A DNA stretch of 11,833 bases, from IMG/VR virus record IMGVR_UViG_2778261064_000021, positions 1 to 11,833 of that record, one strand, 5' to 3'. Shown in pieces: positions 1-11,296 of this stretch. Each line of letters begins with the position of its first letter. Position 1 is the stretch's first letter. The notes below the pieces were generated by a model that was given only the letters and a program-made list of their open reading frames with translations, ran no database searches and was not told the DNA's origin. A program made the translations under genes and the position numbers. This stretch comes from a virus (lineage: Duplodnaviria; Heunggongvirae; Uroviricota; Caudoviricetes).

Positions 1-1227
1 GTGGCTGGCACAAACAAACTGAGTGATAAAAAATTAAGATCGCTTCTCGGCGTAAAGCGGGATTCAGTAATTACCATTGCGGATGGTGAAGGATTAAGCA
101 TCAAAGTATCCATGATGGGGTGCATTAGTTGGGTTTTCTCTTATCGTCTTGGTGGGCGTGGGAGCAAGTTAGAGCGCATTGTTCTTGGGCGTTACCCTGA
201 CATGTCGTTGAAAATGGCTAGGGAGAAGAGGGAACTATGCCGAAAATGGTATGCGGACGGGCTGAATCCACGACTTGAATTAGAACTTAGCGCAGAAGAA
301 AACCTTAACCCCGTAACTGTCCATGATGCCCTTGAATATTGGCTAATTCATTACGCAAGAAAAAAACGTAGTGACGAGGAACTGGTGCGGGCGCAATTAC
401 GTAAGCATATTTATCCGCGTCTTGGCCACTATCCGTTATCCCGGTGTGAAACGCGTCACTGGGTGACATGTTTTGATGAAATTAACCAGTCCAGGCCAAT
501 CACTGCCGGGCGAATGTTCCAGATTTGTAAACAGGCCTTAAGATTCTGCAAGGTTCGCCGTTATGCCTCATGTGATGCCCTGGCTTTTATGACAATCCAG
601 GATGTAGGGCAACCATCGGGGCAGCGTGATAGGGTGCTGTCAGATAGTGAGTTAGCTGATGTATGGCGGTGTACTTATAGCGATGAACAGCAATTTTATT
701 ATCTTCGTCTGCTTAAGTTGCTTGTGCTGTTTGGGGCGCGAACAATGGAAGTAAGATTATCCCGGTGGAGTGAATGGGATTTTCAGTCATGGATTTGGAC
801 GGTTCCTAAAGAACACAGCAAAACTCGTGAAAAAATAGTTCGTCCAATTCCAGAGGGCATTCGCCCATGGATTGAGGATCTAAAAAAAGAAACGGGAAAA
901 ACAGGAATTGTACTGGGTGAAGAACGTTCCCGCCAGGCTGCTTCGCTTAAAGGGCGTAGGCTATACAAAGATTTTCATCATAATGAGCCATGGACGCTTC
1001 ACGATTTGCGCAGAACATTTTCTACAGGTTTAAATAATATGGGTATTGCGCCACATATTGTAGAGCTTTTACTTGGTCATGCATTGCCGGGGGTGATGGC
1101 TATTTATAACCGTAGTCTGTACTTACCTGAGAAAATGGATGCGTTGAATAAGTGGTATGGCCGATTAGAACTTCTGGCGGGTAATCATCAAAATGTGGTG
1201 CTGTTACCTGTATCGAATAGAGGTTAA
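1..1227 (+). CDS. int: Tyrosine site-specific integrase, P4-type; N-terminus probably clipped by the window edge (frame opens at base 1 with GTG)
   Basis: 408-aa ORF; C-terminal catalytic signature HDLRRTFST...LLGH...AIYNRS (HxxR, LLGH, catalytic Tyr); N-terminal arm-binding-like region resembling P4/CP4-57 integrases. Confidence 0.9.
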   Translation: MAGTNKLSDKKLRSLLGVKRDSVITIADGEGLSIKVSMMGCISWVFSYRLGGRGSKLERIVLGRYPDMSLKMAREKRELCRKWYADGLNPRLELELSAEENLNPVTVHDALEYWLIHYARKKRSDEELVRAQLRKHIYPRLGHYPLSRCETRHWVTCFDEINQSRPITAGRMFQICKQALRFCKVRRYASCDALAFMTIQDVGQPSGQRDRVLSDSELADVWRCTYSDEQQFYYLRLLKLLVLFGARTMEVRLSRWSEWDFQSWIWTVPKEHSKTREKIVRPIPEGIRPWIEDLKKETGKTGIVLGEERSRQAASLKGRRLYKDFHHNEPWTLHDLRRTFSTGLNNMGIAPHIVELLLGHALPGVMAIYNRSLYLPEKMDALNKWYGRLELLAGNHQNVVLLPVSNRG

Positions 1228-1318
1228 ACTGATATTACGGGCATAGGTCGGCCAACCGAAAAGCGGGAAACCCTACCCGCCTGGCTCGTAAAGTATTTAG
1301 GGCGTTGAGGGTAGCGCA

Positions 1319-2248
1319 ATGGCTAACGACATTAAAATTCCTTTTCAGTATTGCAACATTGAGCGTGCATCAAGATTGCTGGGTTGCGAGATTAGCGATC
1401 TCGTGAATTTAGGTGTTACTAAAAAAATAGCTTTATGCCTAAATTTATTTGATGCTCGCGCTGTTTTATATATGAATACTGATAGCAAGTCTGCAACTGC
1501 TTGGTTTGATACCAGAAATGCAAAATCGACCACATCACTGATGGGGAACAATATTACTGAATACTCTAGGTTTCATCTTTTCAGATACAATTATAACGAG
1601 GAGACAGATGAAACTATACACGCGCCTTTATTCGGTCAAGACTCAGAAAACGGATGCTTTAGCTCTATTGGTAGGGCTTATGGATTGTGGCGCCTTTGGA
1701 GTGGGCTGGAAGAACTACAAAATTTTGGAGAGTATTCCCTAAGTGGTTTTGAATTAACCCCGTGTCATCCAGAAACTGATAATCCTGCCGTACAACTTTT
1801 AATGGTTGGTGAAGATAGTGATTATGATGAAGAAGACGATCAAATATTAAAGAATAATATTTCTATAAATGACTTGTGGATTACCGCTCATGATATAAGG
1901 CGACTTCTTGACTGTGGTGGCGATTATTTTACGCTAACAGATAATTTTGAATCTGTAGAACCTCACAAGATGAATGGCAATGAAATTGTGCACCATTCTG
2001 CTGAAAGACATGCAAGAAATCGAGAGCAAATTTTAATGGTTGCTATGCGTTTTAAAGAAGAGCAACAAAATACTTTTAATGAGACCTGCAGAAAAAACGA
2101 TGGAACGATTAACTATTCTGCTTGGGCTCGTGAGTTGATCGCCAGACCTGATTGGTTCATTAATAGTGAATTGCCAATAAAAACAGAAACAAAAATAGCA
2201 GCAATTTTAAGTAATGCTCATAAGAGGCCGAGTGAAAGGTCGCAGTAA
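1319..2248 (+). CDS. Hypothetical protein, 309 aa, AT-rich cargo gene; possible N-terminal helix-turn-helix, acidic stretch mid-protein
   Basis: Long ORF with GAGGG Shine-Dalgarno about 9 nt upstream of ATG; about 35-40% GC in hand-counted samples versus about 50-55% in neighbouring genes; N-terminal IERASRLLGCEISDLVNLGV resembles an excisionase/AlpA-type HTH; no recognisable catalytic motif. Confidence 0.6.
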   Translation: MANDIKIPFQYCNIERASRLLGCEISDLVNLGVTKKIALCLNLFDARAVLYMNTDSKSATAWFDTRNAKSTTSLMGNNITEYSRFHLFRYNYNEETDETIHAPLFGQDSENGCFSSIGRAYGLWRLWSGLEELQNFGEYSLSGFELTPCHPETDNPAVQLLMVGEDSDYDEEDDQILKNNISINDLWITAHDIRRLLDCGGDYFTLTDNFESVEPHKMNGNEIVHHSAERHARNREQILMVAMRFKEEQQNTFNETCRKNDGTINYSAWARELIARPDWFINSELPIKTETKIAAILSNAHKRPSERSQ

Positions 2249-2270
2249 GCCTTACTCATATACTCCTAAG

Positions 2271-2303
2271 CATACTGATATATTTATAAGCATTATCAGT
2301 ATG
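2271..2303. promoter_or_regulatory. Perfect 10-bp inverted repeat (catactgata / tatcagtatg, 13-bp spacer) upstream of alpA; candidate operator or weak terminator
   Basis: Read directly from the sequence; lies between the 309-aa gene stop and the alpA start. Confidence 0.4.
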
Positions 2304-2385
2304 TTTCTATGATTACTACTGTGTTTTAATCCAGTATTAAAGATTGCAAAATAGCCTCCGCAAGCATAGATACAGTGGAGGCAAT

Positions 2386-2670
2386 ATGACAAAAACCACA
2401 TTCATTCCCCCAACTCCAGAACAACGCCGGGCGCTTCTTGAAGAATACGGTTTTGAATTTGATCGCCGTATCCGTGAAAAGGAATGCCAGGAAATCACCA
2501 GTCTGTCGCGCTCAACTCGCTTCAAAATGGAAAATGAAGGGCGTTTCCCGCCTCGTTGTCATTTCGGGCGCAATAGCTGTGCGTGGCTTCTCTCTGATGT
2601 GCTTTGGTGGGTTCGTAACCCACCTGCTGTAGATAAAGTCAATAATCCGTACGGTAAGAAAGCCGCATAA
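2386..2670 (+). CDS. alpA: AlpA-family transcriptional regulator (prophage CP4-57 regulatory protein type)
   Basis: Segment ITSLSRSTRFKMENEGRFPPRCHFGRNSCAWLLSDVLWWV matches the AlpA/HTH_17 pattern (LSRST..R....G.FP....G.....W...D...W); GGAGG 4 nt upstream of ATG 2386. The track ORF starts at an upstream TTG (2344), judged less likely. Confidence 0.8.
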   Translation: MTKTTFIPPTPEQRRALLEEYGFEFDRRIREKECQEITSLSRSTRFKMENEGRFPPRCHFGRNSCAWLLSDVLWWVRNPPAVDKVNNPYGKKAA

Positions 2671-2687
2671 GGGGGGAGTTATGACAC

Positions 2688-2717
2688 ATAAAACAAAGGC
2701 GACCGGGGGCGGTCGCC
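2688..2717 (-). terminator. Rho-independent terminator for the minus-strand RHH gene
   Basis: 8-bp GC stem ggcgaccg/cggtcgcc with 4-nt loop (2698-2717); on the minus strand it is followed by the U-rich tract tttgttttat. Confidence 0.5.
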
Positions 2718-2808
2718 AATGGGAAAACACTAAACATAAGCCCGAACATCATAGCGATTTGCTGGCTGGTGGGCAATGTGATCAGTGTGCTGGCTTGCTG
2801 GTGGGCTA

Positions 2809-10191: not shown

Positions 10192-10242
10192 GATGATTTT
10201 ACCATTAAACAATGAGTTACAGAGAAGAAGAACGGATCTGAC

Positions 10243-10323
10243 TTTTCCCGAAAAATTTTCATAAACAGTTAAGAATTGCGCGTATGGCTACCCCCGGTGT
10301 TTCATTTTCCAGGAAGGACCCGC
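10243..10323 (-). repeat. Right arm of the ~80-bp inverted repeat (partner of 9299-9380); contains the cosN-like core of cos2
   Basis: Reverse complement matches 9299-9380 with a 33-bp perfect block; mismatches clustered at 10283-10288. Confidence 0.8.
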
Positions 10324-10366
10324 CACAATTACGGCATTGTTTTCCATCACCACGGAGGCCATGACA

Positions 10367-10651
10367 ATGACCGAAGCCGAAATGCTCAAAATGATTCGCC
10401 GTGCTGCCGGAATCAGACCACCAGCAGGCAAACAGGAGGCCACGCAGCCGGACAGCGTGATAGCCGAAAATTACGCGCGTGTGGTGGCTGAGGTGATGCG
10501 CCGTGACGGTATTGAGCTTAATGGCGTGGATATATGCAACATACGCACCAGAGTTCTGGAGATGTTGTCGTACCGTCGCCGCGTGCAGATGTACCAGGAG
10601 AAAGAAAAAATTACGTACCAGTGGAAGAAGCCTGAGCGGTTGCGGCGGTAA
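10367..10651 (+). CDS. Hypothetical protein, 94 aa (alternative start ATG 10361)
   Basis: GGAGG 8 nt upstream of ATG 10367; no recognisable domain; weak hairpin (10666-10687) downstream. Internal start of track ORF 10337..10651. Confidence 0.5.
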   Translation: MTEAEMLKMIRRAAGIRPPAGKQEATQPDSVIAENYARVVAEVMRRDGIELNGVDICNIRTRVLEMLSYRRRVQMYQEKEKITYQWKKPERLRR

Positions 10652-10710
10652 TCGGTTAATTTTTACAAAGCCCTTTTTCGGGCTTTGGCCTAACCTGCTG
10701 ATATTTTCGG

Positions 10711-10735
10711 AAACCTCGATTTGAGGAGACCGGAA
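10711..10735. repeat. Copy 1 of a 25-bp imperfect direct repeat (aaacctcgatttgaggagaccggaa) with an internal near-palindrome
   Basis: Matches 10851-10875 at 22 of 25 positions; internal cctcRatttgagg is (near-)palindromic. Confidence 0.6.
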
Positions 10736-10850
10736 CGTCTACATAGCTGCATCACCGTAATGATGATTTGGCCCACCAGCAACCATAACGATTTCCGTTA
10801 CAGTTGATGTGCTTTTTTGCTGGTAAGGCGTAATCCGTTGATTGTTCCAC

Positions 10851-10875
10851 AAACCTCAATTTGAGGAAGCCGGAA
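10851..10875. repeat. Copy 2 of the 25-bp direct repeat (aaacctcaatttgaggaagccggaa); internal 14-bp perfect palindrome cctcaaatttgagg
   Basis: Read directly from the sequence; 140 bp downstream of copy 1. Confidence 0.6.
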
Positions 10876-11296
10876 AACTCACCCGCCAGATTCTGAATGG
10901 TGAAAATCACCAGGAATCTGAATAGGCATTTCCTCTATGGAGGTCGCACCGTTTTCGGGAGAAGGTGCGATCATGTTCGTCATACCGGTTCCGTTGAAAT
11001 GAAATAGCCCTGTATGGGCATCATCACCATGCAGGGGATCAAAATCTCTGTAGCTTCATGTTGCCGGGACCGCCAGCCTCGCCAAATTTTTGCGTTTGTG
11101 AAAAACGAAAATTATTACGTGCTTTGCCCTCTCCTGTTTCTGATGTTGTATACTCGCGGCCTTCTAATTGTGCTGGTGCTTTTTTGAGATTGTGGCGCTG
11201 TGTATCGATCCGTATATCATTCGGTGTATCACTTTTGATAAATTGCTACGTGTGAATTTGTTTTTAACTGACAAAAATCAGTGGGTTATGTGAATC

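What the first reader, a model, noticed from the sequence alone, without database searches (positions are those of the whole stretch)
1..11100. Overall architecture is a phage satellite (PICI / P4-type) next to hpt, not a prophage
The gene set is integrase, AlpA, primase/helicase with adjacent iterons, SSB, a minimal capsid module and a small terminase with cos, with no tail, portal, large terminase or lysis genes. From memory, E. coli K-12 has gcd immediately upstream of hpt on the opposite strand; no gcd-like ORF is present in the roughly 600 bp upstream of hpt here, so the island appears to replace or displace that neighbourhood.
Basis: partly seen in the sequence, partly recalled or inferred. 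Interest (0 to 1): 0.55.

Follow-up and report, generated by a model that had tools for sequence, protein, structure and literature searches.

The report
Phage satellite (PICI) inserted in hpt
The window is an 11.5-kb phage satellite of the well-described E. coli PICI type, inserted into the first codons of the hpt gene; it is not a prophage and it is an ordinary new member of a known family.

Summary
Pfam and PHROG confirm integrase, AlpA, P4-family primase-helicase, SSB, a lambda gpE-like capsid protein, a gpD-like decoration protein and a Nu1-like small terminase. No portal, large terminase, tail or recognisable lysis gene is present.

Ten GGTGAACAGT iterons follow the primase gene. Two lambda-like cos sites flank the terminase gene.

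Near-identical copies in public assemblies (99.87%) lie between gcd and hpt, with ordinary host genes on both sides. The element is 11,489 bp. Its att core is ATGAAACATA(C/T)TGTAGAAG, the first 20 nt of hpt, so the right end is near 11,316, not 11,100. gcd is displaced, not replaced.

The island is collinear with the prototype PICI EcCICFT073 (capsid 85%, decoration 84% aa identity). PICIs at hpt with this att block were catalogued in 2023.

It is a PICI, not P4-like and not a capsid-forming PICI. The local differences from EcCICFT073 are:
- a true Nu1-type terminase where EcCICFT073 has RppA;
- a phage-21-type cosB;
- a non-lambda cosN, of a class also found in some lambdoid prophages;
- a conserved doubled arm motif in attP.

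Verdict: interpretation supported, new member of a known kind, low to moderate interest.

The parts
1..1227 (+). Tyrosine integrase (408 aa, GTG start at window position 1)
   Evidence: Pfam Arm-DNA-bind_3, Phage_int_M and Phage_integrase. 83% aa identical to the integrase of the KSC9 hpt-site cf-PICI. 47% identical to the EcCICFT073 integrase.
1236..1302 (+). int-alpA RNA motif
   Evidence: Rfam RF02996, 55.2 bits against a gathering score of 35.8, E 2e-9.
1319..2248 (+). orf309, an accessory (cargo) gene in the int-alpA slot, function unknown
   Evidence: GC 0.37-0.41. Matches phrog_7144, function unknown. No Pfam, NCBIfam, PADLOC or PDB sequence hit. AF2 model pLDDT 81.6, with no significant fold match. 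No counterpart in EcCICFT073.
2386..2670 (+). AlpA-family regulator/excisionase
   Evidence: Pfam PF05930, 6e-12. Called as a 94-aa gene in near-identical loci.
2809..2985 (-). Small divergent ribbon-helix-helix-like gene (58 aa)
   Evidence: Weak matches only: RHH_1 E 0.02 and the NikR N-terminal domain E 0.003. Annotated as a 59-aa hypothetical protein in HNSQ2209.
2962..3046 (+). Promoter-like site TTGACA-17-GATAAT (2979-3007) inside a 27-nt inverted repeat; candidate promoter/operator of the rightward operon
   Evidence: Promoter scan 11 of 12 matches. Inverted repeat I5. Function is inferred.
3119..3325 (+). Icd-like small protein
   Evidence: 95% aa identical to the EcCICFT073 gene annotated as Icd-like.
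3315..3780 (+). phrog_2512 gene split into 79-aa and 77-aa ORFs by a G8 tract at 3537-3544
   Evidence: PHROG halves match the two ORFs. L037 has G10 at this tract and an intact 155-aa ORF.
3773..4277 (+). orf66 (phrog_340) and a DUF4222 protein
   Evidence: DUF4222 is 70% identical to its EcCICFT073 counterpart.
4274..6079 (+). Primase-helicase (601 aa), the replication initiator
   Evidence: Pfam D5_N, DUF5906 and Pox_D5. TIGR01613 P4-family primase C-terminal domain. 49% identical to the EcCICFT073 primase.
6092..6316 (.). Replication origin: 10 iterons GGTGAACAGT in both orientations
   Evidence: 12 matches in the whole window against 0.6 expected. (inverted repeats I2, I3, I8-I10, I14).
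6413..7032 (+). orf66b (phrog_1231) and SSB
   Evidence: 95% and 71% identical to the EcCICFT073 counterparts.
7291..7497 (+). orf68 (phrog_3255), conserved gene immediately upstream of the capsid gene
   Evidence: 65% identical to the EcCICFT073 counterpart.
7497..8552 (+). Lambda gpE-like major capsid protein homologue (351 aa)
   Evidence: PF03864, 4e-49. 85% aa identical to EcCICFT073 c1499. Only 45-47% identical to any phage gpE.
8565..8900 (+). Lambda gpD-like head decoration protein homologue (111 aa)
   Evidence: PF02924, 3e-16. 84% identical to EcCICFT073 c1500.
8917..9264 (+). orf115 (phrog_1999), function unknown
   Evidence: No similarity to gpFI. 42% identical to the EcCICFT073 counterpart.
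9299..9500 (+). cos1. cosQ GGGTCCTTTCC at 9300-9310. cosN CCGGGGGTACGTGTACGCGC at 9324-9343. cosB with R3 (9381, +), R2 (9448, -) and R1 (9482, +), core CATGTCGG.
   Evidence: Alignments to the phage 21, PhiR5_1 and lambda cos regions. R-site scan. Phage 21 R-site annotation.
9517..10101 (+). Nu1-type small terminase (194 aa)
   Evidence: PF07471, 4e-68. PDB lambda TerS 6hn7_B 1.5e-38, against 0.02 for RppC. 69% identical to PhiR5_1 Nu1, 60% to phage 21 gp1, 52% to lambda Nu1.
10207..10322 (-). cos2, an inverted second cos. cosQ-like at 10312-10321. cosN CCGGGGGTAGCCATACGCGC at 10278-10297. No R sites.
   Evidence: EcCICFT073 has the same arrangement: cos1, packaging gene, inverted cos2.
10367..10651 (+). 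orf94 (phrog_1561), function unknown, conserved last gene
   Evidence: 71% identical to the EcCICFT073 counterpart.
10690..10875 (+). Two copies (10690-10735 and 10829-10875) of a structured repeat of about 45 nt
   Evidence: 93% of cells paired; 5 of 10 pairs carry compensatory changes across 6 paralogous copies.
11212..11232 (+). attP P-arm doubled motif GTATATCATTCGGTGTATCAC (12-bp period), a candidate integrase arm-binding site
   Evidence: Conserved in an hpt island whose left-end (attL-junction/P'-arm) DNA is only about 83% identical. A co-oriented copy lies in the P' arm, outside the window (L001 5957-5976; L034 about 5682-5704).
11297..11316 (+). attR core ATGAAACATATTGTAGAAG, which is also the first codons of hpt
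   Evidence: Comparison with the K-12 attB and with attL of near-identical islands. The published identity block is TATGAAACATA (PMC10111431 supplement).
11297..11833 (+). hpt (host gene), whose 5' end and upstream region are supplied by the island
   Evidence: Pfam Pribosyltran. 97.6% nt identical to K-12 hpt, with Thr4Ile at the junction.

Best explanation
This is an 11,489-bp phage-inducible chromosomal island of the Gram-negative EcCICFT073 family. It is integrated by its own tyrosine integrase into the first 20 nt of hpt.

Shown here:
- Precise att junctions. The island rebuilds the hpt start (Thr4 becomes Ile) and separates hpt from its native promoter.
- A self-contained replicon: primase-helicase plus 10 iterons.
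- A late module of capsid-protein and decoration-protein homologues.
- A packaging cassette: cos1, a Nu1-type TerS, and an inverted cos2.
- No portal, protease, large terminase, tail or recognisable lysis gene.

Inferred life cycle, by analogy with EcCICFT073 and the lambda/21 terminase system:
1. A resident or infecting lambdoid helper switches on the AlpA-controlled island genes.
2. Int, probably with AlpA, excises the island.
3. The primase-helicase replicates it from the iteron origin, producing concatemers.
4. The island's own TerS binds the three 21-type R sites of cos1. Its recognition helix is identical to that of phage 21 gp1.
5. Through its conserved C-terminal domain, TerS recruits the helper's gpA-type large terminase, which nicks the island cosN.
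6. The DNA is packed into helper-made heads and joined to helper tails. A tetramer would be 45,956 bp, or 95% of the lambda genome length.

Because the island has its own TerS and cosB, helper terminase is diverted from phage DNA.

The island's cosN class (CCGGGGG-N8-ACGCGC) differs from lambda, 21 and EcCICFT073. It matches that of a subset of E. coli lambdoid prophages, which are the most likely helpers.

The confidence of 0.88 is for the identification as a PICI-type satellite at hpt. I put the TerS-redirection packaging step alone at about 0.6.
For: Gene content.

Context and boundaries. The island is 99.87% identical in four NCBI assemblies, between gcd and hpt.

Recent mobility: only 3 differences fall in the roughly 11.3 kb of island DNA, against 12 differences in the last roughly 420 bp of hpt. 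Identical late modules or an identical primase occur at a tRNA-Pro site and inside a prophage terminase gene.

Family: collinear with EcCICFT073 at 42-95% aa identity in 14 of 18 genes. The cos1 / packaging gene / inverted cos2 layout is shared.

Published biology of that family: PMC6092414 and PMC6739421. hpt PICIs and their att block: PMC10111431.

TerS and cos.

Prophages with the same cosN class, followed by TerS and a gpA-like TerL. One strain (A19) carries both such a prophage and a PICI with this cos.

Origin.
Against: No experiment shows induction, excision or transfer of this island.

The helper is not identified. Co-residence with a matching prophage was seen in a single strain, and that strain carries a related PICI, not this one.

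The TerS-recruits-helper-TerL step is inferred. The experimentally studied relative uses a different protein (RppA), which heterodimerises with helper TerS.

The island cosN differs from lambda/21 at 6 of the 12 cohesive-end positions by my own count on the alignment. Cutting by any given helper is therefore untested.

In EcCICFT073, deleting either the capsid or the decoration gene did not restore lambda plaque formation, and no phenotype was found for the capsid gene (c1499), which was replaced by a marker in the island used for transfer assays. The role of these genes here is therefore unknown.

The G8 tract splits one conserved small gene, so this copy may carry a defect.
Confidence: 0.88

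Rival explanations
1. It is a decayed lambdoid prophage that retains int, a replicon and a few head genes, with no satellite life cycle.
For: The capsid, decoration and Nu1 genes and the cos sites are of lambdoid ancestry. One small gene is split by a homopolymer tract.
Against: The compact gene order is conserved across several integration sites and genomes.

All major ORFs are intact.

The head genes are only 45-47% identical to any phage gene but 84-85% identical to those of a proven PICI, so this is not a recent deletion derivative.

The replicon is P4/D5-type, not lambda O/P-type.

The island is almost identical in hosts with different hpt alleles.
Confidence: 0.04
2. It is a P4-like satellite that depends on a P2-type helper.
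For: It has a P4-family primase C-terminal domain (TIGR01613), AlpA, an Icd-like gene and an int-alpA RNA motif.
Against: No Sid, Psu, Delta or epsilon/Ash homologue was found among the ORFs scanned.

No P2/P4-type cos is present.

The cos sites and TerS are lambda/21-type.

It carries gpE- and gpD-type genes, which P4 lacks.
Confidence: 0.02
3. It is a partly capsid-forming satellite. The island's own capsid and decoration proteins, together with helper portal, protease and scaffold, build island-specific (possibly small) heads. This would place it between classical PICIs and cf-PICIs.
For: The capsid, decoration, orf68 and orf115 genes are intact and conserved. The same hpt site hosts full cf-PICIs. 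By my own volume-scaling estimate, one 11.5-kb unit would fit a head far smaller than lambda's.
Against: In EcCICFT073, whose capsid protein is 85% identical, all packaged DNA was phage-sized. Deleting the capsid or the decoration gene did not relieve interference with lambda, and no phenotype was found for the capsid gene (PMC6092414).

The island has no portal, protease, scaffold or connector gene.
Confidence: 0.08

Closest known systems
EcCICFT073, the prototype Gram-negative PICI (Fillol-Salom et al. 2018, PMC6092414; 2019, PMC6739421)
   Same: The gene order is collinear: int, alpA, divergent small genes, Icd-like, DUF4222, primase, ori, small ORF, SSB, orf68, capsid, decoration, orfX, cos1, packaging gene, inverted cos2, last ORF.

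Amino-acid identities: capsid 85%, decoration 84%, Icd 95%, SSB 71%, DUF4222 70%, primase 49%, integrase 47%.
   Different: Integration site: hpt here, roxA-phoQ intergenic region in CFT073.

Packaging gene: a 194-aa Nu1-type TerS here, the 144-aa RppA there.

cosN: CCGGGGGTACGTGTACGCGC here, lambda-type GGGCGGCGACCT there.

cosB: three phage-21-type R sites here; EcCICFT073 has an unrelated cosB.

This island also carries the extra cargo gene orf309 and lacks PerC.
hpt PICIs of Mageeney et al. 2023 (PMC10111431), for example the island in E. coli KSC9
   Same: Same attB in the first codons of hpt and the same identity block (T)ATGAAACATA. The integrase is 83% identical. The doubled TrTATCAy motif is present in both attP arms.
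   Different: The 14 published model hpt islands counted here (of about 16) are 15-16 kb and have the KSC9-type left end. KSC9 carries a full cf-PICI late module: HK97-type capsid, protease, portal, connector, HNH, P27 TerS and TerL. The window's island is 11.5 kb and has the gpE/gpD/Nu1 module.
SatelliteFinder 'PICI Type A' (de Sousa et al. 2023, PMC10085698)
   Same: All five core components are present in the canonical order: integrase, AlpA, primase-replicase, capsid morphogenesis gene, small terminase. Size is close to the median of 9.5 kb. 97% of Type A elements are in E. coli.
   Different: None at this level of definition.
Phage 21 / lambda terminase-cos system (Nu1/gp1, cosB R3-R2-R1, cosQ, cosN)
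   Same: TerS is 60% identical to gp1 and 52% to Nu1 over nearly full length. The recognition-helix segment VDPRTIERWQ is identical to that of gp1. The R3/R2/R1 arrangement and the CATGTCGG core are those of phage 21. cosQ is conserved.
   Different: No gpA gene follows TerS. The central part of cosN differs. A second, inverted cos lacking R sites is present. TerS has a 13-aa C-terminal extension.
SaPI-encoded small terminase (pac SaPIs)
   Same: It works alike. The satellite encodes its own TerS, which pairs with the helper's large terminase and redirects packaging to satellite DNA (principle described in PMC6092414).
   Different: Headful (pac) packaging in Staphylococcus, against cos packaging with a lambda-family TerS here. 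There is no sequence relationship.
Satellite phage P4
   Same: P4-family primase domain, AlpA-type regulator, integrase, helper-type cos carried by the satellite, size near 11 kb.
   Different: No sid, psu, delta or epsilon. Lambda-type rather than P2-type cos. Carries gpE- and gpD-like genes and a TerS.

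Membership tests
Gram-negative PICI (EcCICFT073 family; SatelliteFinder PICI Type A) | Integrase at one end, with a specific att site | tested here: met
   Integrase at 1-1227. attL, attR and attB were resolved to a 20-nt core at the hpt start.
Gram-negative PICI (EcCICFT073 family; SatelliteFinder PICI Type A) | AlpA-type regulator downstream of int | tested here: met
   PF05930, 6e-12, at 2386-2670.
Gram-negative PICI (EcCICFT073 family; SatelliteFinder PICI Type A) | Own primase-replicase with an origin immediately downstream | tested here: met
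   D5_N, DUF5906 and Pox_D5 domains. 10 iterons at 6092-6316.
Gram-negative PICI (EcCICFT073 family; SatelliteFinder PICI Type A) | Capsid-morphogenesis gene (capsid protein homologue) | tested here: met
   PF03864, 4e-49. 85% identical to EcCICFT073 c1499.
Gram-negative PICI (EcCICFT073 family; SatelliteFinder PICI Type A) | Packaging-redirection gene (terS or rpp) together with helper-type cos or pac | tested here: met
   Nu1-type TerS. Two cos sites.
Gram-negative PICI (EcCICFT073 family; SatelliteFinder PICI Type A) | Absence of portal, large terminase, tail and lysis genes; size about 10-20 kb | tested here: met
   No such family was found in any ORF scanned. Length is 11,489 bp, with host genes on both flanks.
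Gram-negative PICI (EcCICFT073 family; SatelliteFinder PICI Type A) | Helper-phage-dependent induction, packaging and transfer, with interference against the helper | not testable with these tools
   Indirect evidence only: a near-identical island sits in hosts with different hpt alleles.
Capsid-forming PICI (cf-PICI) | Portal, prohead protease, head-tail adaptor/connector and large terminase (often with HNH) encoded by the island | tested here: not met
   None were detected. Compare the KSC9 island at the same site, which has all of them.
P4-like satellite | psu-delta-sid capsid-hijacking operon and epsilon (ash) | tested here: not met
   No matching Pfam or PHROG family was found in any ORF scanned.
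P4-like satellite | P2-type 19-nt cos | tested here: not met
   0 matches to GGCGAGGCGGGGAAAGCAC with up to 3 mismatches.
Temperate lambdoid prophage | Complete head, tail, lysis and large-terminase gene set contiguous with int | tested here: not met
   The island is bounded by gcd and hpt in four assemblies and two complete genomes. Contrast the A19 and CFT073 prophages.

The most novel reading that the evidence does not exclude
This island may represent a PICI sub-lineage with a packaging strategy that has not been tested in Gram-negative PICIs. Instead of an Rpp adaptor, it carries a full-length Nu1-type TerS with phage-21 cosB specificity. It couples this to a non-lambda cosN class (CCGGGGG-N8-ACGCGC), which it shares with a distinct set of E. 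coli lambdoid prophages, one of which has a lambda-like head and baseplate genes. If so, the island would exploit helpers that lambda, phi80 and phage 21 do not represent.

In addition, the conserved doubled TrTATCAy arm motif shows that the attP architecture reported as unique to helper-embedded PICIs also exists, with a different sequence, in hpt PICIs.
Probability: 0.35. Interest if true: 0.45.

Novelty: new member of a known kind. Interest (0 to 1): 0.25.

Why it matters
PICIs move genes at high frequency and block their helper phages, so knowing where they sit and which packaging signal they use helps predict which phages can spread them.

This case adds little that is new in kind. The family, its architecture and even the hpt insertion site are already published.

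Four details are useful.
- The same conserved chassis can carry either an Rpp adaptor or a true small terminase, with matching changes in cosB and cosN.
- The hpt site is used by both classical and capsid-forming PICIs, through integrases that are 83% identical.
- Insertion rewrites the 5' end and upstream region of a housekeeping gene.
- Both attP arms carry a conserved doubled motif that could be tested as the integrase arm site.

Tried and rejected
- A tRNA search for a tRNA-type att site found nothing.
- A lambda cosN search (GGGCGGCGACCT, up to 3 mismatches) gave only chance-level hits. cos was instead found by alignment to phages 21 and lambda.
- My first degenerate cosN pattern had the wrong spacer (N6 instead of N4). 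It returned three irrelevant contigs and was corrected.
- The hypothesis that orf115 is a gpFI homologue gave no similarity.
- orf94, orf115 and orf309 had no credible hit against PDB sequences.
- PADLOC found no defence family in any unknown ORF.
- Two guesses at the EcCICFT073 location in CFT073 missed it. The third found it.
- A promoter scan of the island's last 700 bp found no strong sigma-70 site that could drive hpt.
- A literature search found no paper assigning a function to the PICI capsid and decoration homologues.

Full report
**1. What is in the window**

The + strand carries a single co-oriented gene array. Pfam identifies these genes:
- a tyrosine integrase with an arm-binding domain (1-1227);
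- AlpA (2386-2670);
- a DUF4222 protein (3978-4277);
- a 601-aa D5_N/DUF5906/Pox_D5 primase-helicase (4274-6079);
- SSB (6610-7032);
- a lambda gpE-family capsid protein (7497-8552, E 4e-49);
- a gpD-family decoration protein (8565-8900);
- a Nu1-family small terminase (9517-10101, E 4e-68);
- hpt (11297-11833).

The primase-helicase also matches the P4-family primase C-terminal domain. The remaining small ORFs match PHROGs of unknown function. They have no defence-system, NCBIfam or PDB match.

Only four ORFs exceed 300 aa, and none is a portal or a large terminase. There is no tRNA gene.

Directly after the primase gene, ten copies of GGTGAACAGT lie in both orientations within 225 bp (6092-6316). 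The whole window has 12 matches, against 0.6 expected by chance.

**2. Boundaries and context**

The window starts exactly at the int start codon, so the left junction is not in it. A look-up of the primase protein found four NCBI assemblies that are 99.87% identical to the window over its full length.

In these assemblies the order is speE-yacC-cueO-gcd | int ... terS-orf94 | hpt-can-yadG-yadH-yadI-yadE. Two complete E. coli genomes carry a mosaic relative at the same place. K-12 has the empty site, with gcd ending 205 bp upstream of hpt.

Comparing attB, attL and attR gives the core ATGAAACATA(C/T)TGTAGAAG, which is the first 20 nt of the hpt reading frame. attL keeps the host ACT (Thr4). 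attR carries the island's ATT (Ile4). The crossover therefore lies in ATGAAACATA.

The island is 11,489 bp (L034 5535 to 17024). Its right end is at window 11297-11316, not 11100. gcd and the native hpt promoter are displaced by 11.5 kb and are not deleted. hpt now reads from island-supplied upstream DNA. No strong sigma-70 site was detected there.

**3. Evidence that it is mobile and modular**

Between the window and L034, only 3 differences fall in the roughly 11.3 kb of island DNA. Twelve fall in the last roughly 420 bp of hpt. The same island therefore sits in hosts with different hpt alleles.

The identical primase protein, and often the same late module, also occurs in two other settings:
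- a PICI at the tRNA-Pro/yejM site;
- a helper-embedded PICI inserted just after the Nu1 gene of a lambdoid prophage.

Among 5,426 complete E. coli genomes, 27 carry an island at hpt with a homologous left end. Nine of these are of the window type (at least 99% identical) and about 18 are of a type about 83% identical. One of the latter, KSC9, is a complete capsid-forming PICI whose integrase is 83% identical to the window's.

**4. Packaging cassette**

The terminase protein is a genuine Nu1 homologue. It matches the PDB lambda TerS at 1.5e-38, against 0.02 for RppC. It is 69% identical to PhiR5_1 Nu1, 60% to phage 21 gp1 and 52% to lambda Nu1, over nearly full length including the C-terminal region.

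*cos1.* Upstream of the gene lies cos1. It has:
- a conserved cosQ (GGGTCCTTTCC, 9300-9310);
- the I2-like TTTATGAAAATTTTT block;
- three R sites in the lambda/21 arrangement (R3 forward at 9381, R2 reverse at 9448, R1 forward at 9482), with the phage-21 core CATGTCGG.

The TerS recognition-helix segment VDPRTIERWQ is identical to that of gp1.

*cosN.* The island's cosN is CCGGGGGTACGTGTACGCGC (9324-9343), which is not lambda's GGGCGGCGACCT.

*cos2.* A second, inverted cos lies downstream of terS (10207-10322). It keeps cosQ and the cosN flanks but differs in the central four bases (GCCA against CGTG) and has no R sites.

*Where this cosN class occurs.* Scanning IMG/VR for the class found mostly satellite-sized contigs of 10-14 kb. 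It also found a 47-kb phage contig in which the site is followed by a TerS and a gpA-like large terminase.

A homologous complete prophage in E. coli A19 has the same cosQ and cosN flanks. That prophage encodes TerS, TerL, portal, S49 protease, D, E, FI and baseplate genes. Strain A19 also carries a PICI with this type of cos.

*Conservation that would allow cross-docking.* The TerS C-terminal domains of island and phages are conserved. So are the N-termini of these gpA proteins. This makes cross-docking plausible.

**5. Comparison with what is known**

I located EcCICFT073 in CFT073 and compared it directly. Fourteen of 18 island genes have collinear homologues. The identities are: capsid 85%, decoration 84%, Icd-like 95%, orf66b 95%, SSB 71%, orf94 71%, DUF4222 70%, orf68 65%, alpA 50%, primase 49%, integrase 47% and orf115 42%.

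Four genes have no counterpart: terS (RppA sits in that position), the cargo gene orf309, the small RHH gene and one 66-aa ORF. EcCICFT073 has the same cos1 / packaging gene / inverted cos2 layout, but with lambda-type cosN.

The literature establishes the following for that island (PMC6092414 and PMC6739421):
- induction and transfer by lambda and phi80;
- function of the primase-ori module;
- a requirement for cos1 and RppA;
- packaging of phage-sized DNA;
- no relief of interference with lambda when the capsid or the decoration gene is deleted, and no phenotype found for the capsid gene.

SatelliteFinder defines 'PICI Type A' by exactly the five components seen here (PMC10085698).

Mageeney et al. 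2023 reported 49 PICIs in hpt, with the identity block TATGAAACATA (PMC10111431). The 14 model att sequences I counted are from 15-16-kb islands with the KSC9-type left end. The 11.5-kb gpE/gpD/Nu1 version at hpt therefore appears to be an undescribed combination of known modules.

**6. Membership**

All sequence-testable PICI criteria are met. Helper dependence cannot be tested here.

The cf-PICI criteria are not met: no portal, protease, connector or TerL. The P4 criteria are not met: no sid, psu, delta or epsilon, and no P2-type cos. A prophage is excluded by the host-gene flanks.

**7. Mechanism and confidence**

I am about 90% confident that this is a PICI-type satellite integrated at hpt.

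I put the specific packaging model at about 60%. In that model, the island TerS binds its own 21-type cosB and recruits a helper gpA-type TerL that accepts the variant cosN. It rests on homology with the lambda/21 system and on analogy with SaPI TerS, not on data for this element.

A tetramer of the island would be 45,956 bp, or 95% of the lambda genome. This is consistent with the phage-sized packaging reported for EcCICFT073.

The role of the capsid and decoration homologues remains unknown. I give about 8% to the idea that they form island-specific heads.

**8. Other observations**

- An Rfam int-alpA RNA motif lies at 1236-1302.
- A strong promoter-like site inside an inverted repeat lies at 2962-3046. 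It faces the rightward operon and overlaps the start of a divergent RHH-like gene.
- A G8 tract at 3537-3544 splits a gene that is intact (G10) in a sister island.
- Two copies of a repeat of about 45 nt, with two nested stems supported by compensatory changes among paralogues, lie at 10690-10875.
- A doubled motif TrTATCAy-N4-TrTATCAC (12-bp period) occurs once in each attP arm. One copy is about 80 bp upstream of the core centre and the other about 154 bp downstream. It is conserved between the two hpt-island types, whose left-end (attL-junction/P'-arm) DNA is only about 83% identical. It resembles, in layout and partly in sequence, the doubled TGTATTGC motif at -81 and +132 that PMC10111431 described as unique to helper-embedded PICIs.
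- orf309, in the low-GC cargo slot, folds confidently but matches no known structure.

**9. Verdict**

The element belongs to a well-described family at a published insertion site. It is a new member of a known kind, and interest is low to moderate (0.25).

Noticed in passing
window 1236-1302 (+): Rfam int-alpA RNA motif (RF02996), 55.2 bits against a gathering score of 35.8, lying between the int stop codon and orf309. Its function is unknown.
   Followed up: partly
window 3537-3544: A G8 homopolymer splits a phrog_2512-type gene into a 79-aa and a 77-aa ORF. A sister PICI (L037 9040-9507) has G10 and an intact 155-aa ORF. This could be slipped-strand variation, a defect or a sequencing artefact.
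   Followed up: partly
window 10690-10735 and 10829-10875; L001 15834-16188 (four copies): A repeated element of about 45 nt, with a conserved TAAC..G.TGAT head and two nested stems. Across 6 paralogous copies, 93% of cells pair and 5 of 10 pairs show compensatory changes. There is no Rfam match and the function is unknown.
   Followed up: partly
window 11212-11232; P' arm copy at L001 5957-5976 and L034 about 5682-5704: A doubled motif TrTATCAy-N4-TrTATCAC is present in both attP arms and is conserved in the diverged KSC9-type hpt island. It parallels the doubled TGTATTGC motif that PMC10111431 reported as unique to helper-embedded PICIs.
   Followed up: partly
[not shown]
   Followed up: yes
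window 11297-11316 and upstream 11100-11296: Integration replaces the hpt promoter region and changes Hpt residue 4 (Thr to Ile). The island's last roughly 60 bp partly mimic the native hpt leader (GTGA(A)TTTGTTTTTAA). No strong sigma-70 site was detected.
   Followed up: partly
L036 3804-6708 and 17611-21806: A helper-embedded PICI encodes the identical primase protein. Its integrase gene sits just after the Nu1 gene of a lambdoid prophage, apparently in the large-terminase gene. The prophage genes gpW, portal, protease, D and E resume after the island.
   Followed up: no
L033 17300-31540 (E. coli KSC9): The same hpt att site is occupied by a 15.7-kb capsid-forming PICI: HK97-type capsid, protease, portal, connector, HNH, P27 TerS and TerL. 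Its integrase is 83% identical to the window's.
   Followed up: partly
L012 4309-15359 (E. coli HNSQ2209): The same genome carries two PICIs, one at hpt and one at tRNA-Pro/yejM. Their SSB, capsid, decoration, TerS and last-ORF proteins are identical. The second copy's replication gene is interrupted by an IS5-like element.
   Followed up: no
L032 12000-25957 (E. coli A19 prophage): A prophage with the island's cosN class combines a lambda-like head module (Nu1, A, W, portal, S49, D, E, FI) with baseplate genes (gpV, gpW/gp25, gpJ-like). This suggests a contractile-tail lambdoid hybrid as a possible helper type.
   Followed up: no
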